From positions 14,942,001-15,006,000 of the forward strand of contig JANJGN010000033.1 of NCBI GenBank assembly GCA_026770705.1: a DNA stretch of 64,000 nucleotides, written 5' to 3'. Made by a program: the position numbers and the translations under genes. Positions 402-61,586 of the stretch are shown piece after piece; position 1 is the first letter of the stretch, and every line of letters starts with the position of its first letter. The stretch is from Isurus oxyrinchus (Eukaryota). The notes beneath the pieces were generated by a model, which worked only from the letters and a program-made list of their open reading frames with translations, had not been told where the DNA came from and did not search any database.

Positions 402-3400
402 ATGCTTTCGAAATCTGTCAATCGGAAAATATACTCGCCATCAACGACAATCGTCCAATCAGCAATTCTTATCCAAATGGAAGCAATGTCTCTTAGTTAT
501 TTGATCAAACTCAAGGTCCTGTGGCGCTTAATGATATGCAGAAGATGTACTATCCGACCTTGGCTGCAGTCGGCGTCCCGGGTAAATTAGATCTAAGGGC
601 TGTTTTATCAGGAAACGTAATTTAACAGTATGTGTGTCAGGGTCCACGTGCCGCAGGGATTAAAATTCGAGAATGCTTTGGTTGCTCTACAGGAATTAGT
701 TGACACGATAATCTGCGGAACTTTACTGAAATGAGAATTAATTAATTATTTATTTCTTACGCTCTTTCTTACGTTCTTTCTTTCTATAATACCCAGCTTG
801 CACTAATATGAATTGTCATTTATTTGTGCCTGTTTCATGATACATGTTCCCTTGATATTTTGAGTTTTCTTGTGCTCCATTCGGACTATTTTCTTGAGAT
901 GACTGTGAATGCAGCACAGACAATGTCACAAGGTCTTTAATGCTTGTGTGTAAGTTCCTGCATGTGCAGGGGCCGAATGCCCAAGGCAGCAAATTTCATT
1001 CCATCTCACAGTCTTGAATTTCTGCAGTTTACAGCTGTAGTTTAATTTCTATAATCAGTCCCAGCTGAGAAATTGAGGAGAATAAAGTTGAAACATAGAT
1101 GGCGAAATATAGTTGAGTTCTTATATTTTCTACCTTTTCCTGTTCCACAGTTGTTTCACTGCTAATGTAGAAATTAAAATGGTCACTATTATTATTGAGC
1201 TCATTATCATGATTCCATATTCCACTAATTGAATTGCACAAGACCCTAATTAATCAGCTGCTGAGACTGGAGATGAGCACATCTGCAATTCGACGTAGTC
1301 AAAAATAATTCATTGCGAATCCAGGAACAGAGAAACCGAAAGAAGTTAATCAGAGTCCAGAGCCAGCAAGGCAAGTATTTAATGTTTCTGTGCAGGGAAA
1401 AGAAAATGCAACAATAACGCTGCAAAGGTTACATATAATTGCTTTATTTGTGCAGTTTTACAGAAGCACTGAATTAATTAAATTGGTGTTCAAAGTGTTT
1501 GAACTCAGGAAGATACATACGACCATGGAAATTAGGAGTACGGTAGGCCACTCAGCCCCTCGAACCTACTCCACCATTCAATACAATCATGGCTGATCTG
1601 ATCCAACCCCAAATTCCAGACAACACTTCAGTCCCTTGTTATTCAAGAATCCCTCTGGTTCCAATTTAAAAATATTTGAAGACTCTCCATCCATTGCCCT
1701 TTGAGGAAAAGAGCTCCAAAGACTCGCATTTTTTTTAAATCTCCTTATCTCTGTCTTAAATGAACGACCCCTTATTTTTAAAAAAAGTGACCGTGAGTTC
1801 TAGATTCTCCAACGGGAGGAAACATCCACTCCACATCCACCCTCTGAAGGCAACTCAGGATCTAAAATGCATCAATCTTACTCTTCTAAATTGCAGTTAG
1901 TACAAACCTAACCTGTCCAACCTTTCCTCATATGGCAGCCCGGTCATTCCTGGCTACTCTAAAAAATTGTAGCCCTGGTTTATCGCATTCGCCTAACTCT
2001 CAACCTATTTCTTCAACTACCCAGATCGGGCATTTACGCACTTCCATCCTCTCAAAAAGCTCACTCATACACAGAGTAATTAAGCCCAGAAATGACCCAT
2101 ACTTTCATGGCTCAGATGTAAGCAATATTTATTTTTCTGTTAAATGCTATGGCATTGGTCTTCATATCAGAAGCATTCGAAGCAATGTTGCAAAATCAAC
2201 TATGTAATCATTGTGTTGAGCTGTGATCTGTCAGTTATCGCCACAATCCCTCAGAATGGTTATATTGGTTTTCATTCATGCATCAGATATTCATCAGAAC
2301 GGTGCCTGTCATAGAAGTGTTAAATTATAAGGCCAGTGTGCACAGGAAATGTTTTTACGCCCATGACCCTAGAGAATTAAGAATTAAACTAATACAGGTA
2401 TTTAACTCCATGCTTTTATGCGGTAGAAAGAGATAGCTATGAATAATCCAATTGGAGTGAGGTACCAGAACAATGGGGCCTAAATTTAAGATTAAATATG
2501 GAGCGATCAGTTGTAATTTCATGGAAGATCTAATCACACATTGCATTGTGGGAATCCAGGGCTATATAAATTGCAATTTTGAAAATTGAGATTGCTACGT
2601 TTCTTTTTCGAGTTAAAGTTATTAAAATTTACAAAAACATTGATGGAAAATAAAATAGAAATTAACCAGGATCTACATGAATGGAGCAACGGCCCCAACA
2701 ATGTGAAATGTTTTTTTTTTTGATCCGAGGTTTACAAATGTCTGTGTAGTTTGTCCCTGATTTGGAGATTAGTCCTTTGCCGTAGTCATACCAGCAACAA
2801 TTTTTATTTACTTTGATCATGTTTCATCTCATCCATTGCTTTGCCTTTTTGCCAAATAGCTAATGATTACTATGTTTGCACATCGTCTCTCCCAGACATC
2901 CTCCCATAGATGAAATAATGAGAATTGATCACTCAATGCAAATTTAAAGAGCACATTTCTTGTCAAAATTGGGTGTTGTGAAAATAGTTGATAAACTATC
3001 AAACAATCTGTTCTGTTATTTCACTGGAGGCACAACAAACCTGCGTTTCTGTGCCCTGCCTGGTCCTAAATGTTCATATTTCCCTCTTCCTTCAAGTTAA
3101 CATGGTGACAATTGCGATCTTGGCTCGGGGAAAATGTGGCCTTTCCAAATGTGTCACTCACTACCTGATGTCTATGGCAGCGGCTGATCTACTGGTCATT
3201 ATCTTCGATCTGATATTAAGGCAAATTCCTATTGCGTATTGGGAAAAATTTCTTATTCTGAAATCCGTTCCACTATGTAACATCCATGCTATTCTGCTTT
3301 ATGCTGCCACAGACTGCTTTGTCTGGTTCACAGTCACTTTCATCTTTGATCAATTCATAGCCATTTGTTCCCAAAAGCTAAAAACTAAACATTGTACTGA

Positions 3401-3990
3401 GAAAATGGTGAATGTGGTTTTAGGATCTGTGACTGTGTTGAGCTGTTTGAAGAACTTTTTCTGATGTTTTCTCTATTCAAGTTGGTACTGGCTATCTAAC
3501 AGTCCCTGGATTTGTAACATTACATATGATGTACTACGTTCAAAGCCTGGGCAATCATTGAATTGATTCATTTTAATATAACACCATTTATTCCATTTCT
3601 TTTGATTCTACTGTTCAATGCTTTGACGGTCAGAAATATTTTAATAGCCAGCAGGACATGCAGGAGGCTCCGAGGTCAGACCACTGAGAAGACGCCAAGT
3701 GACCCAGAGATGGGGAGATGAAGGAAATCCATGACTGTGCTGATTGTTATATCGGGGAATTTCTTGCTCTTATGGGTGGTGTTTATTCTTTATCCCATGT
3801 TGAGGCGATTTGATTACTTGGATTATTCAGTTTCTCTGCCAACATTTGCAGTGGAAATCGGCTTTATGCTCCAGCTTTTTATTTGCTGCACAAACACTTT
3901 ATTTATGCAGCGACTCGGAGGAACTTCCGAGAAGAGATTAAGAATGGAATGAAGTATCCCTTCACAATGTTGGTCAAATTAATTCGATGA
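402..3990 (+). pseudogene. Two-exon class A GPCR pseudogene, shark GPR139-like family (exon 1 about 402-581, exon 2 3097-3990)
   Basis: Exon 1 ends ...MQKMYYPTLAAVGVP-G|gtaaat (donor at 582, phase 1), with an apparent 1-nt frameshift near 524. A pyrimidine tract and ag acceptor at 3095-3096 give V-NMVTIAILARGKCGLSKCVTHYLMSMAAADLLVII...FTVTFIFDQFIAIC...PFIPFLLILLFNALTVRNILIASR...RKSMTVLIVISGNFLLLW...CCTNT-IYAATRRNFRE. In-frame stops at 3462 and 3719; frameshifts near 3546 and 3899; terminal TGA at 3988-3990. Confidence 0.88.
1527..1950 (-). mobile_element. CR1-type LINE 3' fragment
   Basis: Begins with the reverse-strand CR1 3' end (gaaattaggagtacggtaggccactcagcccctcgaacc...catggctgatctg), followed by decayed ORF2 C-terminal sequence. 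Confidence 0.65.
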
Positions 3991-4394
3991 GAATTCCTGA
4001 AACATGTCAACATTAATCTGGACATTTTTGACAACTTCTGTGAAATTATCTTTTCAGTTCAGCTCCGTTCCTTAAAATGTCACAATATCTCCAAATCTTA
4101 ACAGTAACTTACGTTTTAGTTCAAGACATTTAAAAGATATGTTCTCAAAGTATAAGGCCAAGGTTTAAATTAGCTCACCATGCTTTAAATTGATAATTTT
4201 CGAAAGGGGACAAATGGCTCAACACAGTGTAAAGTGGCTGTCCAGGTATACTTTGGCAATAAATAGTGTTGATGTTCTTCACAACATCAATGCATTGGTT
4301 CACAATTTTCCTGCTCCTCGGGGTGGTTATTTCAGAATTAAAGAATGGTCACAGCGCAGAGAAGGCCATTTGGCCTGGGGTTTCTGGGGTGACT

Positions 4395-5070
4395 CTCCGG
4401 AGAAGCAATATCTGAATGCCATTCACAACGTTTCCTCCATAGCCCTGTACATTATTCCTTTCCAGATAATAATCATTTTCCCTTTTGAATGTCTCGGTTG
4501 AATCTTCCACCCTCACACTCGGAGACAGTGCATTGCACGTCCAATCCACTCACTGCGTGGAAAGGTTTCTTTTGCCAAATTACTCAAATCTCTGCCATCG
4601 TGTTTTGAATTCTGCCACTTATGGGGGCAGCATTTTCCTATCTGCTCTGCGCAAAGCCCTCATGATTTTTTAACCCTTTACCAAATCTCTTCTCATCCTT
4701 TGCTTCTCCAAGGACAATAGCTCCAACCACTCCCACATGTCCACCCCAACGTTGGAATCGTGTTCATGAATCTTTTCTGCACTTTCTCTAATGCTGTCAC
4801 ATCGGTACTAAATTGTGATGTCCAGACCTAGACAATACTCCAATGGAGGCCAAGCCAGTTTTCTATAAATCTTTAACATAAGCACTTTGCTTTTTCATTC
4901 TTTGTCCCTATAAATCAAGGAAAGGATGTCATATGTTTCATTAACTCGGCTCAAGGTGTTCTGCCACATTCAATGACTTACAGACAAATACAGCCAGGTC
5001 CCTCTGCTCGTGCACTCCCTTTCGAATTGTGTCCTTTATTTTACATTGCCTCTCTCCGTGATTCCTACCA
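4395..5070 (-). mobile_element. Decayed CR1-like LINE fragment
   Basis: Resembles the other minus-strand CR1 ORF2 3' fragments in the window (e.g. 16410-17580). Confidence 0.5.
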
Positions 5071-5278
5071 TCTTATTACTTGAATGTTGAGAGGTTTCCC
5101 TGATCTCTGCTTGTTTTTGAGGGTTTGGAGGAGGGGGGTGTTGTTGGGATTTACTTTCTGAAAATACTAAAGGATATCATGAGAAAGGACAAAGCTGCAA
5201 GACGACTTTTATTTAAAACAAAAACAGAATTACCTGGAAAAACTCAGCAGGTCTGGCAGCATTGGCGGAGAAGAAAAG

Positions 5279-5719: not shown

Positions 5720-6515
5720 TCACGACCTAAAGTTATTGAATTCAATATTCAGACCGGAAGGCTGTAAGGTGCCTAGTCGGAAGATGAGGTGTTGTTCCTC
5801 CAGTTTGCGTTGGGCTTCACTGGAACAATGCAGTAAGCCAAGGACAGACATGTGGGCAAGAGAGCAGGGTGGAGTGTTAAAATGGCAAGCGACAGGGAGG
5901 TTTGGATCATTCTTGCGGACAGACCGCAGGTGTTCTGCAAAGCGGTCGCCCAGTTTACGTTTGGTCTCTCCAATGTAGAGGAGACCACATTGGGAGCAAC
6001 GAATGCAGTAGACTAAGTTGGGGGAAATGCAAGTGAAATGCTGCTTCACTTGAAAGGAATGTTTGGGCCCTTGGACGGTGAGGAGAGAGGAAGTGAAGGG
6101 GCAGGTGTTACATCTTTTGCGTGGGCATGGGGTGGTGCCATAGGAGGGGGTTGAGGAGTAGGGGGTGATGGAGGAGTGGACCAGGGTGTCCCGGAGGGAG
6201 CGATCCCTACGGAATGCCGATAAGGGGGGTGAAGGGAAGATGTGTTTGGTGGTGGCATCATGCTGGAGTTGGCGGAAATGGCGGAGGATGATCCTTTGAA
6301 TGCGGAGGCTGGTGGGGTGATAAGTGAGGACAAGGGGGACCCTATCATGTTTCTGGGAGGGAGGAGAAGGCGTGAGGGCGGATGCGCGGGAGATGGGCCG
6401 GACACGGTTGAGGGCCCTGTCAACGACCGTGGGTGGAAAACCTCGGTTAAGGAAGAAGGAGGACATGTCAGAGGAACCGTTTTTGAAGGTAGCATCATCG
6501 GAACAGATGCGACGA
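5720..6515 (-). CDS. Penelope ORF fragment: RT thumb/linker plus GIY-YIG endonuclease (no natural start; truncated)
   Basis: VY..C..C...YIGET GIY-YIG signature; uninterrupted frame. Confidence 0.85.
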
Positions 6516-8574
6516 ATGCTTATTTTCATGACATCACCTGGTCAGATGGCCAAATGTATTTAATGTTCTTGATCTGGTGGTACCAAAGGCAGCAAACACT
6601 GAGGCATTAGCTCCTATTGAGAGCCACATTGGAGCTACAACACAGGAGCCTAATTTGTTTGGACATTGGGGGCTGTAGTTCAGCAGAAATAATTCCATGG
6701 ATGTAGCTAGTGAACAACTCGTATTCAAGGTGTCAATGGCACTCTTCAGCGTGTGAACCTGGAATAGTTGCTCTATATATATAGCCTGTAATTTATACCA
6801 ATTTACTTAGGGCTGCTTCTAGGAGACATTGAGCCTGTTCGGCTTGGCAGCCATTGTAATTAGCTAGAGTGTTAATTTGGTCCTGGACCCTCGGCAGCAC
6901 CTGTACCTCATGCACCACCAAGTCTGGGCACCCACCGACAACCCACCACAACACTCCCACCTAATAGCCTCTGCTCAGCATCTGTTGCTCCTGCTCTAAT
7001 AAAAATACCTCCTTCCCCCCATACCATTCCTCGGATCCTTGAAGCCTCAGCACTCCAGATGTCAGAGGAGTGATGGCAGTCAATGGCAGCCTTTTGGCTG
7101 AGCCGAAGTGGCCTCTGGTCGCTGGTGTTGTGAACGGAGCCGGGGATCTGAGGGGTGAGCGTTGAGCAGAGGTGGATGGAACGGGGACAATGGGGGCATA
7201 GGTAAGAGAGGGAAGATCTGGTTATGGAGCCAGCAGTGGCAAAGTAGGTGAGTCATGTTTGCCTAGGGGTTTGAGCTAGAGGACCAGGAAGGTCCTGGGA
7301 TTAAAAGTTGAATCAATGAAACCCTGAAGCTCACATTCCCAAATTCACACATTTATTACAGCGAACAATCACGCCATTCCGCCCGTCATGCCTGTGCTTT
7401 CAGGATGACTCTGGAAAACACTTGGAAACAATGTAGAACATTTAGCTGTCTTTGAACTGAAGGCAGACCTGAAGGAGCAAAACTCCAGATTGTAACACCT
7501 TAGGCTGAGCAAACTTCGCTGGAATTGCACCACCCACTGGACCTTCCAGGTCAGCTGGCTGATTAATCCCTGCTTTTTTTTGGAGAGCAATTGCTCGCTG
7601 CACATTAACAAGGGAGCAAGACAGTAACTTAAAATGCAGTCAGCAAGAATGCCTTAACTTTGTCCCTGACCGCAAATCAAAGTCAAGGGACTAAATTCAA
7701 AGCTTTGAGATCAAGACTGTTACCCACTTTGCGGTGTGTATTATGGGGTGTGATGATGTCAGGTGGAGTTTACGAAGTCAACACGCCTATTTCTGCTAAT
7801 ATGCACACGGGCGGGTCAAAAAAGTCGGGAACCTCCCCGTGTTAGATAAATATCAATTTTAAAGGCATTTGAACTAATTAACTACCCATCTCACTGCAAT
7901 AATACCGTCATCAGGGAATAATATGACTTCGGGGAGATTTACGACAGGTGGGCAATTCGTTTTTGTGAGGGTACGTTTGTTTGGGCGGGTTTTAAATGCG
8001 CAGCTTTGCAGTTTAAATTCTGCTGACTGCAGGGACTGCTGATATGAGTGGACAGAGAAGCCTTTTGAATATCTTTTAGGAGAGAAACTCTCCTCTGATG
8101 AAGCGGGCCTGTATTATGGAACACGTTTTCTGCCCATCAAAGAGGGCTGAGGACTAATACGTGCTTGAGACAGGTAGGGCTTGTTGCCTCAGTTGGAGAC
8201 ACAACCTCCAGTGAGGAGGAGATAAGGATTAGGAGGAGGTGGAGGAGAAGGGTGCGAAGAAGAAGGGAACACTGCGAGGCTCAGGCTGCTTCCTTCCTCA
8301 GGACAAGGGCAGAGCAGCACTGTTAGATGTCGAAGGGAAGGTGGAATGTGTTAAAGGAGGTCATCATATCCAATAACAGTGGCGACATGAAAAATTGTTT
8401 TAATTACTGCGAAAATGAGTGAAATAAATTCTTGTGATCATGGACTTGCAGAAGCTAGTTCATGCAAAATATGCTAACAGACTGTTAACTAAAATGGAAG
8501 ACAAATTTCATGTGCTTGGCTGAAGAATAAAATGCAGAGAACAGAAATAATGGACGAGCATTGTTAAGAAACAT

Positions 8575-13885: not shown

Positions 13886-13924
<39 letters not shown>

Positions 13925-19600: not shown

Positions 19601-19700
19601 ATGAGAACTCCATTTGCCCTCCTTCAATTTATGGATTTACCGCCAATTATACAGACAGGAATGGTTTACTATCCCATTATAGCTGCCTTTGCAATCCCCG
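19601..19700 (+). CDS. GPR139-like GPCR first coding exon A (N-terminus plus start of TM1), intact
   Basis: MRTPFALLQFMDLPPIIQTGMVYYPIIAAFAIP-G|gtaggt. Phase-1 donor and YYP.lAA...P motif as in the exon at 542-581. Confidence 0.82.
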
Positions 19701-22757: not shown

Positions 22758-22760
22758 GGT

Positions 22761-36060: not shown

Positions 36061-36132
36061 AGGTTTGCTCTAAGTCTCTCATTACATCGAATCAATTGGG
36101 AACCACGCGCTCAGCACCACTTTTTTGGCAAA

Positions 36133-36232
36133 ATGAGAACCCTATTCACCGCAACTCCATTTATGGAATTACCGCCATTTGTACAGGCAGTAATAGTTTA
36201 CTATCCCATTATAGCAGCTGTTTCAATCCCCG
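36133..36232 (+). CDS. GPR139-like GPCR first coding exon B, intact
   Basis: MRTLFTATPFMELPPFVQAVIVYYPIIAAVSIP-G|gtaggt. Confidence 0.82.
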
Positions 36233-38839: not shown

Positions 38840-41800
38840 CGAGGAATAGTCAACAGTTGTTCCAGATGTGACTCTAAATATTCGGAAATGAATCGTCCAA
38901 AATAGAGTAACTTGATTTTTGAAATGACGCATGAAATGGGACATTGGAAGGGAAAGTTGACAACATCGATCAGTCAGAAGGGACTTCAGTGCTCACCAGA
39001 AGTTGTAGTCTGCTAATGGGTGTTCTAATTTTGAACTTAATTAATTGTGCTCTGTTAGAGAGTGGTTGTACTTCCACATTGTGTGGAGTCGATTGATTGA
39101 AGTACTACCCGTTTGTTCGAAATAGTAAAGGCAGCAGAAGGGTTAAGGAATATGAAAGTTCGACCTACTTCAGGTTTCGGTTCGAAAATATGTTAAAGTC
39201 ACTAAAGAGTTTAGTGATTCCGTGTAAAATAGCCAGGGTAAAGTATTTCATAAGCGCAGATGTAGTATCCAATGAAATACCCTTATTATTGTGTAAGCCA
39301 TCACGAAAAAATCTCAAAAGAAATTAAACATGGAACACGATGAGGCAATTGTTTTTAGGCAATCTATAGGTTTACAGTTTACGAAATCGGTTCGTTATTT
39401 TACCCCCTCAACAAGACACAACATTTACAATCACATTGTTAAAGAAATGTTGATGAAATCACGGCATAGGTGTTATAAGGAAAAAAAACGGCAAACTGTT
39501 ACAAAATTACTTCGACAGTTTTTTCCATCCACCTTGTCATACTTAAAAAAACATTTTAATAAAGGATGCATTGACAATACATAATAACTATTCTTATAGA
39601 AGTGATTAGTGAGAAATGTAGCATCTGTAAAATACAAAAAGCACATCATCACGGGCAATCGTGAGTTTCCCATTAGCCAGAGACTATACTGGAATTGTGG
39701 GAGTGGACTTGAAGGTTTGGGATGACGACAAAAATAATTTGCTCACACTTACAGACAGGGCAACTAGATTCAGTTTGTCAATAGTAATATATATTAAAGG
39801 CAAGAGGTAATTGTGATCAGGATAATGGAAAAAAATGGATAGTAAATGGAGTGGGAGCACCAGCTACATTCCTATTTGACAATGGGGGGCAGGTCGGGTA
39901 GTGGGAGAAATTCCATGAATTTTGATGAAATTAGACGTACATGTGAAAACATGCAGGATATAGTAAAGAACACAGCAGCAGCAAGTTACTTCCGTTATGG
40001 GGTTTGTGGAAGAAATCATGCAGTAATTGATCAGATGTTTCCAAAATCTTAGCCAACCTACCGACTTGTAAAATGGTATCTGTCCTTGCATGGGCTATTC
40101 CTGCGAGGAATTCAGTTCAAATTGTCGGGGGCTACTGTCCTGAACTCTTATTTTTTGGATGAAATCCGAAAATGTCTTGGGAAATAGAAACTGAAGAGAT
40201 ACAATGCACTTCACATGCATATATTTTGGACAGGTACAAGGAGCAGCTGACTGAATATGGACAAAGTGAAAATGAAGCGCAAGAGAAGGCTATTCATCTC
40301 AAAGGGCAGCTTCCCGAAGTTGACACTAGAGTAACGTATATGCCAGTAGGGCCCAGTGAATGGAGGGATGTTGCCATTAAAGGGAGAGCTGGAAAAGCCA
40401 CCGGCAAATACATGCAATGGCTGAACGTACAAGATGAAAGACATGAGGTAAAATCCATAGACTGGCAAAATAATCCAGAAGTGTGGGAAGCCAGAAAATG
40501 CATTGTGAGTTCTGAAATAGGACATGGGAGATATCGAGCCCTAGGCAAAGTTCAAAACTCTGATAGTGGGAAGGAAAGGCCGTGTTGTTATAGTGCAGAA
40601 AGAAAAAGGAGGGTGAGTAGAGGCCGTAGCTTCAAAAGAAGAAGAGCCATAGATCAGGTCAGGAATGCCACAAGAATTAGAAGGCATTATGATTGTTAAG
40701 TTTTAGTGGCTACTAACAAACTAGAAAATAAGTTAATAAAGCATGCTGAACAAGAAACATTTTACAGCTGGAAAGAATTTGGCATGTACACTGAATTACC
40801 AGACAGGGGACAACCACCCATATCACAGATGCAGATACACACAGAAAAATGAACGTCCTGATGGCACGTAAAAGGCTAAAGCCATACAAGTTGCTCGGGG
40901 TTTTGAATAGAGACTTGGAGATCAAGATGTCAGAGTGTAGTCCCCCATGGAACTAAAATGAGCTTAATGCTTTTCTTAGCTTTTTTAGCAACATGTTCCT
41001 CGGAATCGATTAATATGAAATTTGTATTTTGGCAGTGTGAGAAGTTTCAAAGGGAAGTGTTTTTGAAAGCATCTAAATAAGCCCTGTGATAGAAGGGGAG
41101 CTTTGGATATTAAACACGTGTGTTTATCTGTTCAGTTACGCTCTAAGGGTGTGACATTTCTCGGTTTGGTCCATCCTGTTCAAAACTGGTGCATCCAGCT
41201 AAAAGCAGACCCTTTAAATGTCTATTGTTATCATCAGGAGAAATAGGCTGGCACCTTTATGATGCACCTTGCTGACTGTCTGTGAGGAGGTTATATAAAA
41301 TTTAAGAAATGGGTGATAGATAAAGTGAAAGATTGAATGATTGGATGACAGGCTTTCGGGGCCTTTAAATATATATGGACAGAATATGCCTGGCTAAGTT
41401 CCCAGGTTGTGATGTAAATATCAGTATTGTAGCTGCACAGCAACACATTGACTAAGAGTGTGGCCAGCTCTCAAATACAATGTTGCAGGACAACAGTCAA
41501 GAGGCTGTCAGGGGCTAAAGCCTTTGCTGAATCCAGTGACTTCAATCATTTCATGATCGCATGTGGTGTGAATCGCCAAAAATGGACACTAATCAGAATA
41601 AGTTGGGACTGACCATGAATCAGGAGTCTTATTGAGAAAATATCTATCACATTCCAATAAACCCAGCCAGGCCCTCACAGAAAGAGGACCCTGCAACCAA
41701 GGATGAACTAGAACAATTAAAAGGTTTGAATGGACAGTTGGATGGATTGTCCTGTCAGACCAGGCTTGATGCAATTTATGGCATATTGGAATGGAATGTT

Positions 41801-42265
41801 AGGATGAAACATTCCGCAGTTGAGGAGGTTCTGAGGTAAAAAAAAAGTTAAATAATTAAAGTCAGTGAACTGTGCACTTAATTTTACAGCCATGGTTGAT
41901 ACAGAATAATTCGAGTTAGTAATGGTCAGTGATGCTTCACATGCCAATCTTTCAGATAGATAATCTTAAACGACGGGTTTTATCACATTCCTGTTGAGAA
42001 AGAATAAGAAATTTTGCCCATTGGCCTGGGAAGGGAAGAAAATAAAAATTGTAGTTAAAAGCACCTGACCAGCAGAAACGCTCGTTCCAGGGGGAGCGAT
42101 TGATTTGGGATTTCACTTAAGAAAACTTCTGCAGGAAATCCAATAAAAAGGGCATTCAGGAATAAGAAGTTCTGTCATGTGGTTAACCATTCTACAAGGG
42201 CTAATGTACATTCAATAATGACAAAAGTTTAAGGATTGACCTGGCTTTGAATTAACAAATGGTCT
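38840..42265 (+). mobile_element. Decayed Ty1/Copia LTR retrotransposon internal region (gag knuckle, PR, INT, RT, RNase H)
   Basis: In order: CSRCDSK (about 38858), ALLESGCTSTLCG (about 39050), KLLRQF/CSICK, VGVDLKVW, APATFLFDNGG, GVCGRNHAVID, RAGKATGKYMQWLNV, KAKAIQVARGFE (about 40875), CVYL..., MHLADCL*GG, FKY, SDASHANL, CPLAWEGKKIKIVVKST*PAETL, LRIDLA. Integrase upstream of RT is the Copia domain order. Confidence 0.85.
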
Positions 42266-43099
42266 TGTTCAGAAAATGGCTCAGTTTGCATTCGAAACTG
42301 TAAGTCTCTTTTTCTGTCACAAGTGCTTTCAGGGCTGTCCAGTTTTTCCTTGCAGAATGGGATAGATTCAGAACAGATCCATCAGCTCAAAACTGGTCAT
42401 CCGTGAGCAGCTCTCTGCCATCAGTGTCTTCTGCGAGTCAGAGTTATTCCACCTGCTATGAAGAAGTAGGTGACTGCACTTGATTCAGCAAAGGATCTAG
42501 TCACTGATAGGATCTGAGCTCTTGTTCTTAAACCCGGATCTCTCTGCTGGCCGCACCCTTAGCCAAGATGTTACAGTACAGCTAAAATACTGGCATTTAC
42601 AACACAACCCGGAAAAGCTGCCAAACATATTATCTCTATAAGCGGCTGGGGTCATCCAGTCCAACCAATCATCACCCCATCAGTCTGTTTTAAATAATGT
42701 GCAAAGTGATAGAAAGTGTCATCAACAGTGAGAAGAAGGGTGCGCTATCTCACTAACAACCTATGACCAGGTTGGGTCCAGCCACGACCTCTTAGCTCCC
42801 TACCTCATTGCAAACTTGCTACGAATGCGGGAAAAGAGTGGAGCTTCACTGCTGATGCAAGAGTGGCTCTGCATGACAAATTTGTATTTGAGGTCATAAA
42901 ACGAAAAAGGACATTTTCTGAACATAATGGGGCAGCAATGATGTAGCGAGAATTAGAACAATGAGAAAGAAAAGAAACATTCAACGCGAAGCGAGGTTAC
43001 TTGTTAAATTCATGGGAATGAGTGTGAAAAATCAATTTAGCCTAGTGATGATACCTGAAGCTTTTTCCTAACATTGCAAAACTCCATACAGTCTAGAAC

Positions 43100-47069: not shown

Positions 47070-47600
47070 TCAACAGGCTTTTCCCCGGGACTGCAGCACT
47101 CTCCTATGAAGAGAGGTTTGGGAAATGGGATCGGTATTCTTTAGAGTTTCGAAGAATGACTTGTGATCTCCTTAAAACCTACACAGTACTTAATGGGATG
47201 GGCAGGGCCGATGTAGGCAATATTTTCCCCTGGCCGTGAAGTCTGGAACCAGGGGGCACTGCTTTTAAATCTGAGGGGAGCCATTTAGAACTGAGATAAG
47301 GAGTTTTTATTTTACTCATAGGGTTGCAAAGCATTAGAATTGTCTATCCTAGAGGGCTATGGAAGTTCAATCGTGGAACACTTTTAAAGTAGAGCTTGAC
47401 AGATCCTTGAATATCAATGACCAGTCCTAAATGGCTCCACCCTAATTTTCAAATAGAATCCCCTGGTTCTAGGCTTCCAACGAGGGCAAATTAATACAAA
47501 CATTTTCCCTGCCCATCCCATTAAGAATTTTGTATGTTTTAATTAGATCGTTCTTCGAAACTCTAAATAATACAGGCCCTGTTTCCCAAAGCTCACCTAA
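47070..47600. mobile_element. Tail-to-tail CR1 3' fragments (plus 47070-47420; minus 47425-47600)
   Basis: LSYEERFGKWDRYSLEFRR..FPLAVKSGTRGH-type sequence. Confidence 0.65.
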
Positions 47601-48569
47601 TAGGACAGCTGCTCTTCCTGCTCAGGGGATGTTCCATCAGCAGAGATCACAATGCCTATCACCAAGGTTATAAAAGTTTGACTGACACTTGGATGGGGCC
47701 AAATGGTCAAAATCCTTTGGGGGCCTTGGAGGCGCCAATGAGTCCTGAAATGAAACGTGGAATTGCGAGCACTGAAGCTCAGAACGGACATGAAACTGTC
47801 AAGTTCTAATTAGCTACCAGCAGCAAAATATCTTCAAAATTCCTCGCTGCTCACGATCTCAACACTTTTTGGACTTTTTTCTCCCATTCTTGGACGAGGT
47901 TTTGAAAAATGTGGGCTGCCGGCAACACAAAATCAGGATCATTTGGGTTTTTGATGGCATCAAGTGGCCTTTTAGCTAATGGAGGGCACAACTCCAACAC
48001 CCATGTGGGCGTGCGTGCCAAGTGAAGGAACACACAAGCGCGATGAGATCAGGACGCTCACCCGATGGCATCTCACGCAATTTTATGGCTACTCAGGTTG
48101 TGCATGTGCCCACCTATCAGACATAAAATCCTGCCCCTTTGTGTGATTGGCAAGACATGCTTTCATTTGCGAGGCATTAGTTAATTTGTTGCGAGGCTGT
48201 TTATATTCAGGAATAGCGACGAGGTCGTCGAGTTCAAATGTACATCTTTTATGAACCATTATGTCTGAAAGCAGGATGCTTCGCCAGGAACAGTCGCACA
48301 GACCAGTCTGACACTTCATCTGATCACCTGAACCTTTAATATCACAACTTTGTAATGTACTTGCAACACATAAATAACGACCCCATTTACTTCTGGTAAA
48401 TCCCAAATGCACCATCTCCAAACTGTTGACACCCTCCCTACAGTGTGGTGCTCAGATCTGAACGCAATTCCCTTTCCAAGCTCTTTCATTCAATTAAGTT
48501 ATGGTTGATTATTTGCAGCAACTACACCTTAGCAAAAATTTCCAGTGTTCCTTAACACCATTCCTCCTG

Positions 48570-50025: not shown

Positions 50026-50997
50026 CCAACTTAATGAAGATTGTGATACTTTCCCGTGGAAAGTGCGGTCTCTCCAGTTGTGTCACATGGTACTTGGTGG
50101 CTATGGCAGCGGCAGATCTCCTGGTCGTTATCATTTATGTTATATTGACTCGAATTAAGGACTCTTATTTTCCGACTAATTTTATGTTCATTAATCCTGT
50201 TTGTTCTTTACAATCTGCCTTAAATCATGCTTCGACTGACATTTTTAGTGGGTAACAGTCGCTTTCACTTTTGATCACTTTGTTGCCATTCGTTGCCAGA
50301 AGCTGAATGCTAAGTATTGCAATGACCGAACCGCAACCACGATTATAGGAATTATTTGCCCAATTTTCTGCGTGAAAAACATACGCTGGTACTTTGCATA
50401 TGAAGCCATATATATAACTGACGTCATACCATGGGGTTACAACAGAATAGTTGATTATTATACTGCAAAAGCTGGAATAGCATTTAATTGGATTCACCGG
50501 TGCTTGACAACACTGCTTCCAACAGTTCTGATATTGTTGTTTAATGCTCTGACTGCAGGACACATTTTCGCAGTAAGTAAGGCCTGGAAGAGACTGAGGT
50601 CCAGCCAGAATAATGGGGTTCAAAATGATCCAGAGATTGGAAACTGGAGAAAATCTGTCATCATGCTCTTTGCTATATCTGGCTACTTTATACTTCTCTG
50701 GGTGTAATATACTACTCTGATGTAATATAATTCTTATTAATCCACATTATCAACCATTATTATTCAACAGGTTTCCATGACCCAATGTATATAGCAGATC
50801 AAACCAGTCATATGCTCCTGCTTCTCAGCTGCTGCACTAACACGTGTATCTATGCAGTGAGGCAGACTAAATTTAGGGAGCAACTTACAAATGGAATCAA
50901 ACATCCAGTGAAAATAGTGTTTATATTAATGAAACAAAGAGAGAAACATACTGATTCCCAGGATTGGATCAGTAGGGTATATGTTGGTTTATGGTAG
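50026..50997 (+). pseudogene. GPR139-like GPCR second exon (TM1 end to TM7 and C-tail), disrupted
   Basis: Acceptor tttctcttttacag|CC gives A-NLMKIVILSRGKCGLSSCVTWYLVAMAAADLLVVII...; frameshift near 50247; VTVAFTFDHFVAI..QKL..KYC; LTTLLPTVLILLFNALTAGHI; DPEIGNWRKSVIMLFAISGYFILLWV* (stop at 50705); LLLLSCCTNTCIYAVRQTKFREQL. Confidence 0.9.
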
Positions 50998-52435: not shown

Positions 52436-52449
52436 AGTGTTGGGACATG

Positions 52450-52773: not shown

Positions 52774-52817
<44 letters not shown>

Positions 52818-53125: not shown

Positions 53126-56100
53126 TGAACATTGACAGCGTGAAAGAGTTTGTGCCCTTAAAAGTGCCTAGTCTGCTTCAGATTTGCCTGAACATGTATT
53201 TTACCCAATGCCACTATTAATAAAGTTTGAGGTTCTATATGCTTTATTAATTGCTCTCTCAACATGTCCTACTCCTTCAGTGACCTATGAATGTGTATTT
53301 CTTCTTTGTTCCTACACCTCCTTTAGATGGTCTCCCTTTATTTTATACTGTCTCAGAATATCTTTCTTGTCAAAACGAATCACCTCTCATTCCTGTGCAA
53401 TATTGATATCTGGAACATTATTCATGCCAATACCTCTACCAATGAAAGTTGGTTTGTAAACCAATGAGCTTTTTTGCGTCATATCTGTAAATTGCTGTTT
53501 TTTTGATTATTGGTATTCTTACGAAAGGCCCCAGTGAACACAATGCCAAAGGCTACAGCAGCATTTCATTTTCTTTTCAGCAACATTTAATGTAATACTC
53601 GAATATTAATGCCACTCATGTTGATTATGTCAATGAATCCAGCAAAGCAATACGCGAAATTTTGTGTCAATAAATTCTGTACGGTTACAGTGGCAATTTT
53701 CCAATCTTCAAAGCTTTCTTTGTCTCCAGAAGATCCCTCAATCTGGACTCAACAAGCAAAAGAATGGTGTCCAAACGACAACATGGAAAAAACGATTTTG
53801 TTTAACAGAGATTTCATCATATTTTGCAATTTTACTTTGTCAATCCAAAGTCAAAATAGCTTACACATTTCACAGTGGCTAGGAGAACGTTAGGGCTTTA
53901 TTACAGTGAGGAGGAATAATGGACAAGTATTATTCATAGACATATTAAGAAGTTCAGGCAGTTCTTGTAGAGAGAGGAACAGAGTTAATGAAGAGGAGCC
54001 ATATCAGACTAAAATATTAGTTCTTTTTCTCTCTCCACAGAAGCCGCCAGGCCTGCTAAGTTTTTTGTTTGCAGCACTCTCTATTTTAATTCAGATTCCT
54101 AAAATTGTGTATGTATTATAACAGAATTAACATTTCAGCTCAGCAATTTTTAGCAGAACCTGAAAAGTACAGCCAAATGTCAGGAATTCCACAATAATAA
54201 GAAAAGGGAACTCAAGGAAAGAGAGCTGTGGAGGTTAGGTCAGTGAGTATGCTCAAGACTGAGACCACTAGATTTCTAGATCTTAAGAACATCGAGGGAT
54301 ATGACGATAGTGCAGTAAGATGACGTTGAATTAGGAGATCAGCCAATATCTCTTTGAATGGCATAGCGGGGTTGAAAGGCTGCACAGCCTCCTGCTGCTT
54401 CTATTTCTTATGTTCTTAGGTTAAGATAGCCTGTTTACAATACAGTCAATAATGATGGAAGCAAACGAGGGATCTCCCAACAGATAGGGTAATTTCAGTG
54501 GTAAGGAGAGATCACGGGTAGTTTTCCTGCAGGTTTCCAGGAGAGGATGAAGATTGGGAAGTGTGAGGACATTGAAGGATTTAAGATTAAGGATGCAGCA
54601 ATTAAATTGAAGGCATTGGGAGATTTGGAAGAAATGTGCTTCAGTGTTTCTGTAGATAAGTGGTGAGTGGGTCTTCCTGAGGGCTTGAAATGGGCAGCAG
54701 AGTTTTGGTGCAATTTATTATAACGGAAGTTGGGCTTCGTGGAATGTGCTGCAGTTAGGAAACCGACACTATGCTACAGGCCACTTGGGGCAGAAGTACC
54801 TCTTTGGACCTGTGGCCTTCTGTTCGGCGCGGTTGAAGATTTGAAATTGTGCTGATGAGATAATTTTTGAGTGTACTCAGGAATCCAGGAGAACGGAATA
54901 TGGAAAGGCGAAATCCAATCTATTTTGGGGTGGATCATTGTTAAAGCCATCCATGTGGGAGTAAAGTTTGGACAGAATTCCACGTCAGCATCCTCAATTG
55001 CATACCTTCATGAGAGAGACAAAGTTTCAGTGAGATTGGTTGGCTCACAATGTGATGAACGTCTGGGTGGGGGTTTTGGGAAATCCATGGAACTGGCTTC
55101 CTAATTATCCTGAATGTTAGCGTGAAAGACAAATTTGTAAATTGTATTATATTGCTGAACTTGTGAAGTAAAGTTTGTTTTATTGTTTGTTCAAAACCCG
55201 TGGAATCTTGTGGATTTACTCCAAAATCAGGTCTCTTCAATTACAACATGTATCTACTTTAAACACATTATTGGTTCCTAGACAGATCTCACCACCATCG
55301 CCAACCCCACCCACCCACATCCCCAACCACCCCCCACCCGCACCCATTCCGGGGTCTGGCCAAAGATTATAAGAATATTATTATTTTTTAGACATAACAT
55401 AACATAAGAAATAGGAGCAGGAGGAGACCATTCGGCCCTTCATGCCAGCCCTGCCATTCAAAGACCATGGCTCATCAGCCACAGACCTCAAATGTCCTTT
55501 CTTGGCAGTTCCTTATAGCCCTTAACTCCCCGGTATTTCAAAAACTATCCACCTCCTATTGAATTAATTTCAGTGATCTACCCGGAACAACTCTCTGGGG
55601 CAGATAATTCCAGACATTCCCTACGCTCTGAGAGAAGAAGTCCCTTCTCCTCTCAGTTTTAAATGAGTGTCCCCTTATACAGTAACCATGTCCCCTGGTT
55701 CGAGATTCCTCCGCTAGTGGAAGTATCTTCTCATCCACAAATCTGTGAAGCCCCTTAGAATCTTGCACATTTCAATAAAATCACCCCTCATTCTTCTAAA
55801 TTCTAATGAAAAAAGGCCTAAACTGTTTAGCCATAGTAATGTAAGTGCATTATTAAAAAGTCCTAGCATTTTTGTCGAGTAATGTCAGGATGACTTGCCT
55901 GTTCGTCCTCGGCTATCTTCCGCACACCTATTGCTTGATAATTTGTGTTCCATTTGCTGGCGTGTATTTCGCTGAGATTCTCTGGGGAATTTTGCAGAAA
56001 GATAGCCATTGCACCAATTATCCCCTATTTATAATCTCTTTTGCAGCTCCAGGAATTAGACCCTGAAGCTGTGGGGATTTTCCAGCTTATAATTGTTAGT

Positions 56101-57804
56101 TCACTCGGAAGCCAAATGCTGAAGTAGCCATTCTTTCTCTTAATACCAGATTTCTTTCTAAAATGCAATGTTGCATGTATCGATATCCCTCTAACATATG
56201 CCGGGTATCCAAGCAGTATATCCTTATCGTCTCTTCTGCATAAAACAAATGGTCAATAAATGAAATCAACGAAAAGAGTGTGGGGTGGGGGGTGGTCGGT
56301 GGTGTGATGTAAGCAGCCCCTGATGGACCACTCTAAGTAAAACAAAATACATAAATTCCAAGTTAACTAACTAAACCAAAGTATTGTTTCCAGGATGATG
56401 ATGCACTCCAGCCCTCATGCTGCCCATCGATCCCGGAAGGCATTCAGTGTACCGGTAGACAGCGTGTGCTCACTTTCCAGGGCCACCTGGCCTTGAACAT
56501 AGTGGCGGAAGAGGGGTAGATAGTCAGATCTGATGAAGCCCTCGACCGCTCGCTGCCAGGACCTGCTGATGGCCACATTAGCCCTGCCCAGGAGCAGGCT
56601 TATGGAGAGGTTCCCCGCCCTCTCCGCGTCGTTCCAAACCAGGTGATCAGTAGCGTGGGACTGTGGGACTGAAGTTCAATCAACACTTAAGGAACAGTCC
56701 CTTCCAATAATGAATAACGTGCTGAAACCTCGGGTAATCTAGGTTCACATGGAACACCGAAACCCATTGGCTGCAGAAAATACATGCGTCCTGGGAGTCT
56801 CTCAATCACCTTAATCTAGGTTAACATGGTACAGCTGCAAGTAACACCCTCCACACGAAGTCCCTGATGGAAAAAGGGAGCAGTCCTTCTTCCTACTCTT
56901 TTAAGTAAAACGTAATCAATAAATTAAACTAAGAATCAGTAAGTCAGATGGTGACAGCACTCGGCTGGGCACTACAGCTAAAACAAAAACGTGAAAGGAA
57001 ACTGACAAAATTAAATCAAAATGTCCTTTCCGGTGGTGCTGATACACCCCAGTCCCTGTGGTGCCCACCAATCACGGAAGGCCTCTAGCTTACATTTGGA
57101 GACTGGGCGCTCCATCTCCAGGGTCGTGACTGTCTCAGTGATAGAGGGGAATATTTCTTTGTATGTGGCCCAGATAGTTAATCAAACAATACCCTTCATC
57201 TGGGAATAATTAACCTTAATATATAAAATCACATACAATTAATACTATTCCCTCAATTTTCTACAAAACTTTTTACCTGGAATTATTAAATGCCTTAAAT
57301 TCTTCCCTTCCCCCCTTGGTTATCTTTATTTCTCGTTATGTAATTTATGCTTTCTACCATGAAAGAAGTCAGATTATTTTTTCTTGTCCCTTCCTCTTTC
57401 ACTTTCCCCGTTATGTTTTCTACTGGTCGAACCCATAAAGAATCAATATTTACTTAAGCTCCTCCTCTTCATACACTTGTAGAATCTCTTATAATTCGTG
57501 TTCATAAACCTGACTGGTTTGCTTTAATAACCTGTTTACCGCTTAATATCAAATTGTCGGTTGCCTTTTGATGTATTCTAAAGCATTCACAATTCAAAGG
57601 CTTATGACTATTTTATGCATCAAAGGAAGTCTCGTTTTTAATCTAATACTATTCTTAACTTCACTGGTAAGCCTTGGTTCTTTCTTTCTTCTTTTTAGTA
57701 TAATATCTTTTGCAGAGCACTTTATACCGTTTGTTTAAATGATTAACCTGACTTCCAATTACACTCCCGTTAAGGCAACAGTAAAACAACAAATATTTCA
57801 ACAG

Positions 57805-57900
57805 AAACAGAATTACCTGGAAAAACTCAGCAGGTCTGGCAGCATCGGCAGAGAAGAAAAGAGTTGACATTTCGAGTCTTCATGACCCTTCGACAGAACT
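57805..57900 (-). mobile_element. Solo Penelope pseudo-LTR (about 95 bp) with hammerhead at 57862-57900
   Basis: Nearly identical to 5222-5317; absent at the paralogous site of copy A (about 13340). Confidence 0.85.
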
Positions 57901-60900
57901 ATTTCAACAGAAATATTTCAACAGACCCAGGCAAAGTGCACAATGTCTTCGAGAGTGACATTTAAAATAATTTATCTTAGCTTAAGTTCCTGGAGAATGC
58001 AGCTTGGTACATAGAGGCTGGAGGCTTTTCACACTTGTTAGATCTCAGAATGCCTTCTTCTTACACGTAACCTAATGTGTTGTATACAGATTTCTCACTG
58101 TTCAATGTAAATCTCATTGTTCCAATGTGTTTTCACAAATCTACTTTTTCCATAATCTGAATCTGCCCAGCAGTCATGTTATCAGTAATTTTTGGGAAAA
58201 ATAAGTAGTAGTTTGTTTGGTTCAGCCTCTTTTGGCTAGGTCTGTTGCCTTGCCATCTCTCTCAAATTAATTATTCAGGTATGTCGACAAATGCAAAGTT
58301 TTTTGTACTCCTCGTTCTAAAACTTCAACCATGTTTCCGTTACTAGCACTTCAAATCTAGTTTCCAATGTGTTATAGAAAAGCACACAGACTAGCTGTCC
58401 ACAGTTCAATTACCATTGCCCCCTGCCCCACACACACAACCAATACAGAAACTAATCCAAACCCAACTATTGACCTGCCTTCACAATAAATGGTAACAAT
58501 ATTATGAAAATTATTATATTTTCACGACACTCACCAAATGCTCACTTCCTTTGTGGTAACGTAATTTCATTTCCTAGCTGGTTAGCTTAACTGTGTTACT
58601 TTCCCTCTCTCGCTCTCATTTGCTGTCTCTTTTTCTTTATATGTAATATATATAAAAATTTGAGGGTGCAGCACTGATCCCTGTGGTTCTCCACTAATTA
58701 AAGCCTGCCAGCTCGAAAGTGATCCTTTGTCTGCGTTCTCTGCTTCCTGTTCACTCACCAATCCACTACTCATGCTAACATGCTGCCTCGACAGGTGGTT
58801 GGAACCACAAGTTTCCGCATTTGATTTGTCCTGCTTTTGTGCTGTTTTAGCACATTGATATCTGGCAGTGGAGCCTGGACAAATTTTCCAGAAAATTGTG
58901 CCTTCACCCAGCAAGTAAACTCACTCTGGTTGGTGCTGAGAGATCTTTCAAAAAAGGGGCTAAAAAGCATGCGTGGCCAAAGGACACATGGATATTTATT
59001 TTGCAGGGATATTGTTGGAGAAAAAAATAGTGGTGTACTCTGATAATTCGGAAAGGCCAGTCCTCAGTTTATAAGAAACATAAAACTGTCGCCTTTCATG
59101 GTTATGGGGCATGGCCCAGGAGTATAACAAATAAAAATTAGGACTTGGAAACAAAAAGTAACTGTTCTATCCAATTTATTCATAAGCATGCCATTTTTCA
59201 AAAATTCGGTCCTTCCTTTCATTCAAGTATTCATTCAATTCCACTTTGAAAATTAATGTTGAATGTGCTTCCACCGTCCATGCAAAGAAAGCATTCCAAA
59301 ATAGTTCTCAAAGCGAAATATTGTTTTACAGTAATATCTCCGCTTCTTTAGCCAGTCATTCTCTGTTGCTACTGCTTACCCATCATTTTGTCATTAGGTA
59401 ATTATTTCTCACCTTTATTACAACATTCATTAGTTTGAGCAGCTCTATCAAGTCTCACATCAACTTGATTTTCTGTGACGGGAATGATTCCAAGTCTCTG
59501 TACTTAACTGAAGCCTTACACCTTTGACATAATTGTGGATAATTCCTATGGAGCTCCACTGGCGAATTGACATCCTCAGAAATTGTGTTACTCAGAACTG
59601 GACAGTATAGTCGAGCTGAGTTCTAAACTTTTTAGCAGCTTTCTGTTTTCTGCTCTATTCTTTTCGAAAATGCCAATGAGTGTACTTCTTTTAGTCCTCA
59701 TCTCACGTTGTCCTGCCAACCTTCGAAGGTAAGAGTGTCTGCATCGCCCTGCACTCTCTTTATACTTAATCAGTTTGGTTCAATTGCTTCTCACCGTTAT
59801 TCCTATTAAATTGTATGATTTCACACCCATCTCTGAAAAATATCATGTTTCATGCATTTGGCTACTTCACCAGTCTATGTCATCCTGTAATAATTATCCT
59901 CATTATTTGCTACATTTCCAGTTTTAATGCCACCTCTAATACCAAAATGCTGTGCTGGCTCCCACGATGTTTTCGGGAAAAAAATAGCAGTTTGATCTCG
60001 CTTGCTTGCATACTTCCCACTCGTGAAGCTTTGAATCTCCGTGGTTCCCGTTCAAACTTCGTCCGTTAAAAGAAAAAAAATACAGATTGCTGTAACTGGT
60101 TTAAGTACCTTCCCGCTGCATTCAGATGTGATGTGTCACCACCAGATCAACTATTATGAGGAATATCTGGCAGCGTCATGGATATGCCACGCATTATCCT
60201 GGCATCTTCCATCCCAATATTCTCCAACCTCTTTCTCTCGTCCTAGCCCATGCCCAAATTGCCAGAGTTAATTCAGCCCTAACGCAGGAGCAGAATTCAA
60301 TGAATAACCTTAAAACTACAGTGCCAGAGGGGCCCTTTCGGCATGCCTTGCCTGCACCAGCTATCTTAATGAACGGTTCCCTTGGTGTAATTCTTTCATC
60401 TTCACACCAAAATCCTGCGCATATTTTGTTTTCAGTTAGCAGTCCAATTCCTTTTTAAATGTTTCGATTGAACTTGCATCCAACACAATCTCAGGCTGTG
60501 CATTCTAGAGCTGAAACGCGTGGTGCATGGAGTCGATTTTTTTAAAAATATCACTTCTTTGCTCTTGTACACTGTGCCCCATTTAGTAGCGGATTCTTTA
60601 TGCTTTATTCACCGCTGCCCTGCCAACAGCCATGTCCTCTGTGCATATATACTCAGGTGCCTCTGCTCCAGCAACTCCTTTAGAGTTCTGCCCTTTACTT
60701 TGCAATGTCTGTCCGTGATCTTCCTACAAAAATTGCATCAATTTACATTTTGCTGCAGTAGACTTCACCTGCCACATGTCTGCATATTCTAACCATTTGT
60801 TTATGTCCTTTGAAGTTCTAAACCTTCTAGCTCACTATTGGAGCCCATAGAAACCTGGCGGGAGAGGAGAAGTGTGTGGGGGCGGGGAGTGCTGTAGATT

Positions 60901-61383
60901 TCCACTGAGCTCTTGTTTTTCACATGTCAAAATCTATCTATATGTCATGCCGTTCCCTATACCTTGGTCACAGCTTTTCAAACACAGAAGTGTCATTTGT
61001 GCAAACATATGTCGGCTTTGTTGTGGAAAAATGTTATTGCACAGTCATGTCTGAAGGCATACATTAGGTGCGGAAATTCTAAGCATTGCTTTTTCCAGGT
61101 GTTCGTGGAGGTGTGATATCTTCCCTTACCAAATACAAACAATGCTAATTCAAAGGGTGCAATCGTTTGAAAGATGTTTTGAGAAATGTTTTTCATCCAG
61201 TCTGAGCAGGGACAGGAGTGTCAATTACATGTGGAACATATATGTTGCATCTCAGTCTCCGGAATACTGAAAATCAGAACACCTGCAATGTCAATTTGAC
61301 TAATATTTGTGAAGCGCACACATGACAGCAAATGTAATGTTCAAATGAATGGAACTAATATCACTACCTCTGCTGCGCTGAGA

Positions 61384-61416
61384 TCCCACGGGAGCTTTCC
61401 CTCAGTTATAAATAAA
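61384..61416 (+). promoter_or_regulatory. Promoter cassette C: O/E site TCCCACGGGA plus TATAAAT
   Basis: TCCCACGGGA at 61384-61393, TATAAAT at 61407, ATG at 61487. Confidence 0.6.
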
Positions 61417-61486
61417 TGTTTTCTCTAAGTCTCTCTTTACATCGAGTCACTTGGAAGCTCGTGTCCAGCACCACATCTTCGGTAAA

Positions 61487-61586
61487 ATGAGAGATCCATT
61501 TACTGCAACTCCATTTATGGATTTATCGCCAATTGTACAGGCAGTAATGGTTTACTATCCCATTATAGCAGCTGTTGCAATCCCCG
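61487..61586 (+). CDS. GPR139-like GPCR first coding exon C, intact (not in the ORF track; exon 2 presumably beyond the window)
   Basis: MRDPFTATPFMDLSPIVQAVMVYYPIIAAVAIP-G|gtagat. Confidence 0.82.

What the first reader, a model, noticed from the sequence alone, without database searches (positions are those of the whole stretch)
402..61586. Birth-and-death cluster of GPR139-like receptors: a candidate uncharacterised chemosensory receptor repertoire in a shark
Seen: four first exons and two second exons of one class A GPCR family in 64 kb, all on the same strand, with tandem duplication and pseudogenisation. The two second exons are strongly diverged, and the three intact first exons encode very short N-termini. 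Established: mammalian GPR139/GPR142 are single-copy sensors of aromatic amino acids (Trp/Phe); clustering with rapid turnover typifies chemoreceptor families; cartilaginous fish have few canonical ORs. Inference: this expanded family may serve as an amino-acid or peptide chemosensory (or immune-sensing) repertoire. I cannot check from the sequence whether that has been reported.
Basis: partly seen in the sequence, partly recalled or inferred. Interest (0 to 1): 0.8.

Follow-up and report, generated by a model that had tools for sequence, protein, structure and literature searches.

The report
Shark's thousand-gene orphan receptor repertoire
This window is a mostly decayed corner of a receptor gene family with thousands of copies in this shark's genome, distantly related to the brain receptor GPR139 and diversifying fastest on its outward, ligand-facing side, which likely makes it a large overlooked set of chemical sensors in animals thought to have very few.

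Summary
Confirmed, and much larger than the window. The window holds four first exons and two second exons of a two-exon class A GPCR family. Both second exons are broken; only the first exon at 61487-61586 has an intact partner, 7 kb past the window's end.

Genome-wide, two family motifs match 2,496 and 3,570 times (reversed controls 1 and 0). Sampling suggests roughly 1,000-2,500 open second exons, many near-identical. Paralogues show purifying selection on the inner half and a positively selected site class on the outer half in two subfamilies; in one these sites are the ligand pocket.

These are not GPR139 copies: true GPR139 is a single gene elsewhere. The family groups (100/100) with a low-copy amphibian and sturgeon orphan gene.

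Best reading: a diversifying repertoire for outside chemical cues (0.55); immune sensing is the main rival. Tissue and ligands are untested.

Ten literature searches found no description. NCBI auto-labels members 'probable GPR139', and one white-shark paper that may mention them was unreadable. This scan found the family before in a ray (e1-7813824).

The parts
486..581 (+). Gene A first exon, pseudogene (one base short near 525); donor GT at 582
   Evidence: 96 nt; matches the N-terminus of P0008. A related shark's DNA contig shows no compensating indel there, so it is not an assembly error.
3097..3990 (+). Gene A second exon (TM1-TM7), pseudogene: in-frame stops at 3462 and about 3719, frameshifts near 3545 and 3897
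   Evidence: weak 7tm_1 match of its first 121 residues
9791..20467 (+). Truncated copy of the duplication unit; ends about 770 bases after its first exon
   Evidence: self-alignment at 72-79% to 29134-36980 and 54222-62369
19601..19700 (+). Orphan first exon (33 codons, GT donor, TATA-like box about 80 bases upstream); no second exon of its own
   Evidence: 83% to the 61487 exon against 82% upstream and 78% downstream flank, so no sign of extra constraint
36133..36232 (+). Gene B first exon, open, GT donor
50026..50961 (+). Gene B second exon, pseudogene: 1-base loss near 50243, 11 extra bases near 50702-50708
   Evidence: 85% (788 of 929 bases) to the intact gene C exon
61487..61586 (+). Gene C first exon. 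Its intact second exon (309 codons) lies outside the window at G000:C33:15012998-15013929. This is the only complete gene touching the window.
   Evidence: the N-terminus matches full-length sawshark P0249 and skate P0266, which group with gene C

Best explanation
The window is a piece of a birth-and-death cluster of a two-exon class A GPCR family that has thousands of copies in this shark, and the family likely works as a repertoire of sensors for outside chemical cues. Shown: copy number, turnover by tandem and segmental duplication, a conserved signalling face and a fast-changing outer face, and descent from an orphan lineage that appears low-copy in amphibians and sturgeon. Inferred: each intact receptor binds a different water-borne small molecule or peptide in the pocket and outer loops and signals through a shared G protein. 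Untested: expression in sparse sensory cells, most plausibly the microvillous neurons of the nose or solitary chemosensory cells, and the ligands themselves.
For: Size: 2,496 and 3,570 motif matches, controls 1 and 0. Open second exons: 25 of 40 motif-picked loci and 18 of 37 loci in contiguous stretches. Selection: pN/pS 0.32 inner half against 0.62 outer half in 14 close pairs, Fisher p 8e-7. Site-class test in 29 copies of one subfamily: LRT 136, omega 4.2 at 7% of sites, 15 of 17 sites in the outer half, 10 of them among 31 pocket positions named beforehand (p 6e-7). Second subfamily, 25 copies: LRT 109, 14 of 14 sites in the outer half. Age: members in chimaera, skates, rays and sharks. 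Nearest invertebrate clusters are FMRFamide-receptor-like and carry the Srw Pfam family in 16-74% of members; that Srw-type receptors serve as chemoreceptors in nematodes and molluscs is recalled, not from a call. The known shark olfactory repertoire is small despite a large nose (PMC10116579, passages; PMC11979771, section 13).
Against: No tissue evidence. Immune sensors also cluster, turn over and show positive selection, and in the second subfamily the selected sites are mainly loop residues (3 of 14 at pocket positions), which fits large ligands or an arms race as well. The mean omega of the 31 pocket positions, 1.32, is not significantly above 1 (p 0.15). Gene conversion can inflate the site test. 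Four RNA-guess runs of a related shark, tissue not on record, carry 9, 7, 7 and 1 contigs of other family members; if these are non-sensory tissues, expression is not confined to sense organs, but one loose end reads like an intron acceptor, so DNA carry-over is possible. Many copies are near-identical, which adds dose, not range. In catshark, several OR and V2R genes are expressed outside the nose, so repertoire shape does not fix the organ.
Confidence: 0.55

Rival explanations
1. An innate immune or barrier repertoire: receptors on leukocytes or mucosal cells that detect microbial or parasite products, working like formyl-peptide receptors or MRGPRX.
For: Positive selection on extracellular loops in one subfamily; recent, massive amplification; family contigs in RNA-guess runs from three studies of a related shark. 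PMC8455134 notes that cartilaginous fishes lack MAS1 and related receptors (passage), leaving that role open.
Against: The nearest solved relative by sequence and fold is GPR139, not a chemoattractant receptor. Selected sites in the other subfamily line a small-molecule pocket. The RNA-guess runs have no tissue record and low depth.
Confidence: 0.27
2. Receptors for fast-evolving signals between sharks or between gametes (peptide pheromones, reproductive-tract or sperm receptors), amplified as ampliconic arrays.
For: The lineage sits among peptide receptors. Nine copies of one receptor on eight scaffolds encode almost the same protein while the surrounding DNA of eight of them is 91-96% alike, as in dosage-selected arrays.
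Against: Diversity is very wide: 42-100% identity in 43 sampled copies and 120 library representatives at E 1e-30 or better, each standing for a 50%-identity cluster. No matching ligand family was looked for or found.
Confidence: 0.1
3. Mostly passive amplification: a few functional genes carried along in unstable segmental duplications, with copy number inflated further by assembly.
For: About half of loci are broken (19 of 37 in contiguous stretches; 11 of 15 around the window). Most copies lie on small scaffolds (752 of 852 hits of one motif variant come after the listed ones, from C46 onward). Some copy pairs are 99.5-99.9% identical over 8 kb.
Against: Inner-half omega 0.30 in a recently amplified subfamily (p 1e-20 against 1); all 16 pairs have dN/dS below 1; selected sites concentrate on the outer face; subfamilies persist across sharks and skates; copies differ too much in their flanks to be one locus assembled repeatedly.
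Confidence: 0.08

Closest known systems
GPR139 / GPR142 (class A orphan receptors activated by L-Trp and L-Phe)
   Same: Best match among solved structures by sequence (E 2e-10) and fold (7VUG, TM 0.70, 23% identity). Same two-exon build, with the intron at the end of the first helix's start motif. W6.48 kept in 42 of 43 copies, H5.42/43 in 29, an aromatic F/Y at 3.33 in 30.
   Different: Separate clade. True GPR139 gave one motif match in this genome, 85% identical to the human protein. R6.51 is absent in all 43 copies, N7.38/39 present in 3, P6.50 in none.
Low-copy amphibian and sturgeon orphan (e.g. Xenopus XP_031757816, sterlet RXM35349; auto-named 'probable GPR139')
   Same: One clade with the shark family, support 100/100; shares the DPEM..RR.S motif before TM6.
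   Different: One 90%-identity cluster per listed species, 66-74% conserved across 19 amphibian hits, against thousands of copies here. No amniote or teleost hit in that search, whose sensitivity is limited.
GPR210A/B (PMC6504862) and 'Orphan 139-like' (PMC5207463): non-mammalian orphan groups beside GPR139/142
   Same: Same neighbourhood of the tree; coelacanth, teleost, lamprey and amphioxus relatives appear next to the family.
   Different: The passages seen list few-copy genes and describe no shark expansion. I could not map their identifiers onto my sequences.
Vertebrate chemoreceptor repertoires (OR, TAAR, V1R/ORA, V2R/OlfC)
   Same: Clustered birth-and-death evolution, many pseudogenes, short N-terminus, conserved inner and variable outer face; size comparable to the elephant's 1,948 ORs (figure from PMC11979771).
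   Different: Different ancestry (peptide-receptor-like lineage), a coding intron, and no expression or ligand evidence yet.

Membership tests
Class A (rhodopsin-like) GPCR | 7tm_1 match above curated cut-off and a seven-helix fold | tested here: met
   69-74 bits against cut-off 30.5 for gene C's second exon and a neighbour; model of P0001, pLDDT 88.6, whose listed fold matches are all class A receptors
Class A (rhodopsin-like) GPCR | DRY-type motif, C3.25, W6.48, NPxxY-type motif | tested here: met
   D3.49 43 of 43, R3.50 42, C3.25 42, W6.48 42, N7.49 and Y7.53 43; P7.50 is T or I and P6.50 is absent
GPR139 orthologues | Falls in the GPR139 clade | tested here: not met
   AU p 8e-6 against family+GPR139; GPR139+GPR142 form their own clade at 100/100
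GPR139 orthologues | Trp/Phe site F3.33, H5.43, W6.48, R6.51, N7.38 (PMC5430874, passages) | tested here: not met
   R6.51 0 of 43, N7.38/39 3 of 43, F3.33 8 of 43 (Y in 22), H 29 of 43, W 42 of 43
GPR139 orthologues | Two coding exons with the intron at the same place in TM1 | tested here: met
   family second exons start at xx|N[LV].TI; the true GPR139 frame departs from P0121 just before ANILTV
GPR210 / 'Orphan 139-like' groups | Orthology to the coelacanth and gar reference genes named in the papers | tested here: inconclusive
   identifiers not found in the supplement; a coelacanth-teleost pair is sister to the family clade at only 91/87
Chemoreceptor repertoire (works-like claim) | Large clustered family with birth-and-death turnover | tested here: met
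Chemoreceptor repertoire (works-like claim) | Purifying selection on the signalling face, diversifying selection on the ligand face | tested here: met
   gene conversion not controlled
Chemoreceptor repertoire (works-like claim) | Sparse, one-receptor-per-cell expression in a sensory epithelium | not testable with these tools
   run tissues not on record; catshark atlas supplement unreadable
Chemoreceptor repertoire (works-like claim) | Activation by environmental ligands | not testable with these tools
   needs a cell assay
OR, TAAR, V1R or V2R families (sequence membership) | Nearest relatives belong to that family | tested here: not met
   nearest solved and clustered relatives are GPR139 and peptide receptors; no tree with OR, TAAR or V1R sequences was built

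The most novel reading that the evidence does not exclude
Cartilaginous fishes carry a further, undescribed vertebrate chemoreceptor family, recruited from a peptide-receptor-like orphan before sharks and chimaeras split, which in this shark rivals the largest mammalian odorant repertoires and does much of the work of the shark's sense of smell.
Probability: 0.35. Interest if true: 0.95.

Novelty: new variant of a known kind. Interest (0 to 1): 0.8.

Why it matters
Sharks are described as poor in GPCRs and olfactory receptors (PMC8455134, passage; a few dozen V2Rs in catshark) despite large olfactory organs. A family of a thousand or more open receptors under diversifying selection, hidden under one automatic label, overturns the first statement whatever its tissue. 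It also makes the mismatch between nose and repertoire testable by recounting existing RNA data. The low-copy Xenopus and axolotl relative gives a laboratory handle on the ancestral ligand and cell type.

Tried and rejected
Expression: no RNA holder listed for a neighbouring intact gene. Laying RNA-guess runs gave only paralogue contigs of unknown tissue. The catshark tissue atlas supplement was too large to read and may bear directly on expression. Supplements of PMC5278576 (three of ten files unsearched), PMC10115646 (one file unsearched) and PMC8455134 (one file cut) had no GPR139 hit.

Alternative first exons spliced to a shared second exon: considered for the orphan exon at 19601 and set aside. 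It is no more conserved than its flanks and differs from the 61487 exon at 10 of 33 residues for 17 base changes. Not excluded without RNA.

Assembly indel errors as the cause of the broken genes: rejected for gene A, which has two stops and whose first-exon frameshift is shared with a related shark; not tested for gene B.

Haplotype duplication as the cause of the copy number: rejected as the main cause; some 99.5-99.9% pairs remain suspect.

Mean pocket omega above 1: not significant. IQ-TREE mixture runs failed and were replaced by my own site-class code. The first intactness threshold was mis-set and corrected. The first tree was a quick search; conclusions use. Monophyly of the shark family without the amphibian and sturgeon gene is unresolved (74/11). 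Findings look-ups by sequence and by genome returned nothing.
Full report
WHAT IS IN THE WINDOW. The window is G000:C33:14942001-15006000 of a 4.98-Gb genome. A neighbouring gene is 98% identical to a white shark protein, so the animal is a close relative. Gene A has a first exon at 486-581 and a second at 3097-3990; both are broken. A related shark's DNA contig covers the first exon with two other indels and none at the frameshift, so the defect is real. The other three first exons (19601, 36133, 61487) are copies of one unit, 72-79% alike. The first copy stops near 20465 and has no second exon. The second leads to a frameshifted exon at 50026. The third leads to an intact 309-codon exon 7 kb past the window; its N-terminus matches full-length sawshark and skate proteins. 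In 264 kb around the window there are 15 second exons on both strands, 4 of them open.

HOW BIG THE FAMILY IS. A 28-letter TM7 motif matches 577 times exactly and 2,496 times with up to two mismatches (controls 0 and 1). An independent 32-letter TM3 motif matches 3,570 times (control 0). Two protein searches each scored 150 of about 6,000 candidates; by my count 128 and 141 lie in open frames of 296 codons or more, and I saw no place shared between the lists. For intactness I took 40 of the first 100 listed exact TM7 hits: 25 were open. In five contiguous stretches 18 of 37 second-exon loci were open, or 12 of 29 without the eight loci that led me there; five first-exon hits were set aside. 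Among non-seed loci, 12 of 18 with the TM3 motif and 11 of 19 with the TM7 motif were open. Scaling gives about 2,400 (range 1,500-3,100) and 1,450 (840-2,000). The samples are not random and their first exons were not checked, so I state roughly 1,000-2,500 open second exons. Distinct receptors are fewer: 43 open copies form 29 groups at 90% identity, 29 copies of one subfamily form 10, and nine copies picked for equal scores encode nearly one protein. Eight of those are only 91-96% alike over 5-7 kb, so they are separate loci. Several hundred distinct types is my inference.

WHAT IT DESCENDS FROM. GPR139 is the best solved match by sequence and fold, and NCBI names most members 'probable GPR139'. 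But a GPR139-specific motif finds one locus, on C15, whose protein is 85% identical to the human one. In a 34-protein tree the shark family groups with an amphibian and sturgeon gene at 100/100, GPR139 and GPR142 group apart at 100/100, and family+GPR139 is rejected (p 8e-6; LG+G4, midpoint root, one long invertebrate row left out). The amphibian gene gave one cluster per listed species. Members in a chimaera, skates, rays and sharks put the start of the expansion before sharks and chimaeras split; whether the shark family is monophyletic without the amphibian gene is unresolved. Gene C's subfamily includes horn shark, sawshark and skate proteins. Of the GPR139 residues needed for Trp/Phe (PMC5430874, passages), the aromatic cage is partly kept, while R6.51 is in 0 of 43 and N7.38/39 in 3 of 43 copies.

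SELECTION. All 16 independent pairs have dN/dS below 1; in the 14 close ones pN/pS is 0.32 in the inner half and 0.62 in the outer half. In 29 copies of one recently amplified subfamily the inner half has omega 0.30. A site-class test (my own code, branch lengths scaled only) favours a class with omega 4.2 (LRT 136); its 17 best sites include 2.61, 3.29, 3.33, 3.36, 45.51, 5.39, 5.42, 6.51, 6.58 and 7.42, ten of 31 pocket positions listed beforehand. In 25 copies of gene A's wider subfamily the test repeats (LRT 109), with all 14 sites in the outer half, mostly loops; three rows were left out (two divergent copies, one duplicate). Against this: mean pocket omega is not significantly above 1, and gene conversion can inflate such tests, though it would not by itself aim them at the outer face.

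HOW IT LIKELY WORKS. A fixed signalling face, a changing ligand face and constant gain and loss mark receptors that track many outside ligands. I put environmental chemosensing at 0.55, immune or barrier sensing at 0.27, reproductive signalling at 0.10 and passive amplification at 0.08. The deciding evidence, tissue, is missing. Four RNA-guess runs of a related shark hold 9, 7, 7 and 1 family contigs at depth 4-35; tissue is not on record and at least one contig end reads like an intron, so this is weak.

PRIOR KNOWLEDGE. Ten library searches (seven paired GPR139 or GPCR terms with shark or cartilaginous terms) listed no paper describing the expansion. Seen as passages: PMC11979771 (also section 13; no GPR139 in the main text), PMC10116579, PMC10620051, PMC8455134, PMC6504862, PMC5207463, PMC12294341, PMC7270403, PMC5430874. 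Seen as supplement searches only: PMC5278576, PMC10115646. Subscription papers are not covered. I recall that the white shark genome paper (Marra et al. 2019) may mention a few dozen GPR139 copies; it was not held, so this is unverified and would lower novelty from 'unnoticed' to 'noticed but not characterised'. An earlier finding of this scan reported the family in a ray. My data agree on size and differ on range, since the lineage survives in amphibians and sturgeon.

VERDICT. The family is real, very large, under selection, and not GPR139. It works like a chemoreceptor repertoire in every sequence test run; membership by expression and ligand is untested. Interest 0.8; new variant of a known kind.

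Noticed in passing
window 5720-6541 (-) and 32693-33196 (-): Two related decayed elements (79% alike); the first gives a GIY-YIG match just under cut-off, likely Penelope-type retroelement ends (label recalled).
   Followed up: partly
first exons at G000:C72:985273, 1009519, 1064420, 1109625; also P0066, P0097: Some subfamilies have long first exons made of tandem 14-residue repeats carrying N-V-T glycosylation sites, unlike the short N-termini in the window.
   Followed up: no
L128 6049-7996: GC-rich 64-bp and 32-bp minisatellite arrays flank a recently amplified receptor copy; they may drive the segmental amplification.
   Followed up: no
P0351, P0400-P0419: A conserved orphan GPCR of frogs, salamanders, caecilians and sturgeon, mislabelled GPR139, with no amniote or teleost hit.
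   Followed up: partly
P0346, P0361, P0382, P0383, P0373, P0389: Two further orphan lineages beside GPR139/142 (coelacanth-teleost; lamprey-teleost) and amphioxus relatives, most auto-named GPR139.
   Followed up: partly
about 80 bases upstream of 19601, 36133 and 61487: A shared TATAAATAAA box; the 200 upstream bases are more conserved (82-87%) than the following intron (78-79%).
   Followed up: no
window 47095-47613 and 41374-42640: Old inverted repeats, 67-70% alike.
   Followed up: no
window 40163-40699 (+) and 23311-23697 (+): Open frames of 178 and 128 codons with no Pfam match; probably repeat-derived.
   Followed up: partly
P0302 cluster (Chiloscyllium): A family member is modelled within longer proteins, one labelled RING-type domain; gene-model fusion or real fusion not checked.
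   Followed up: no
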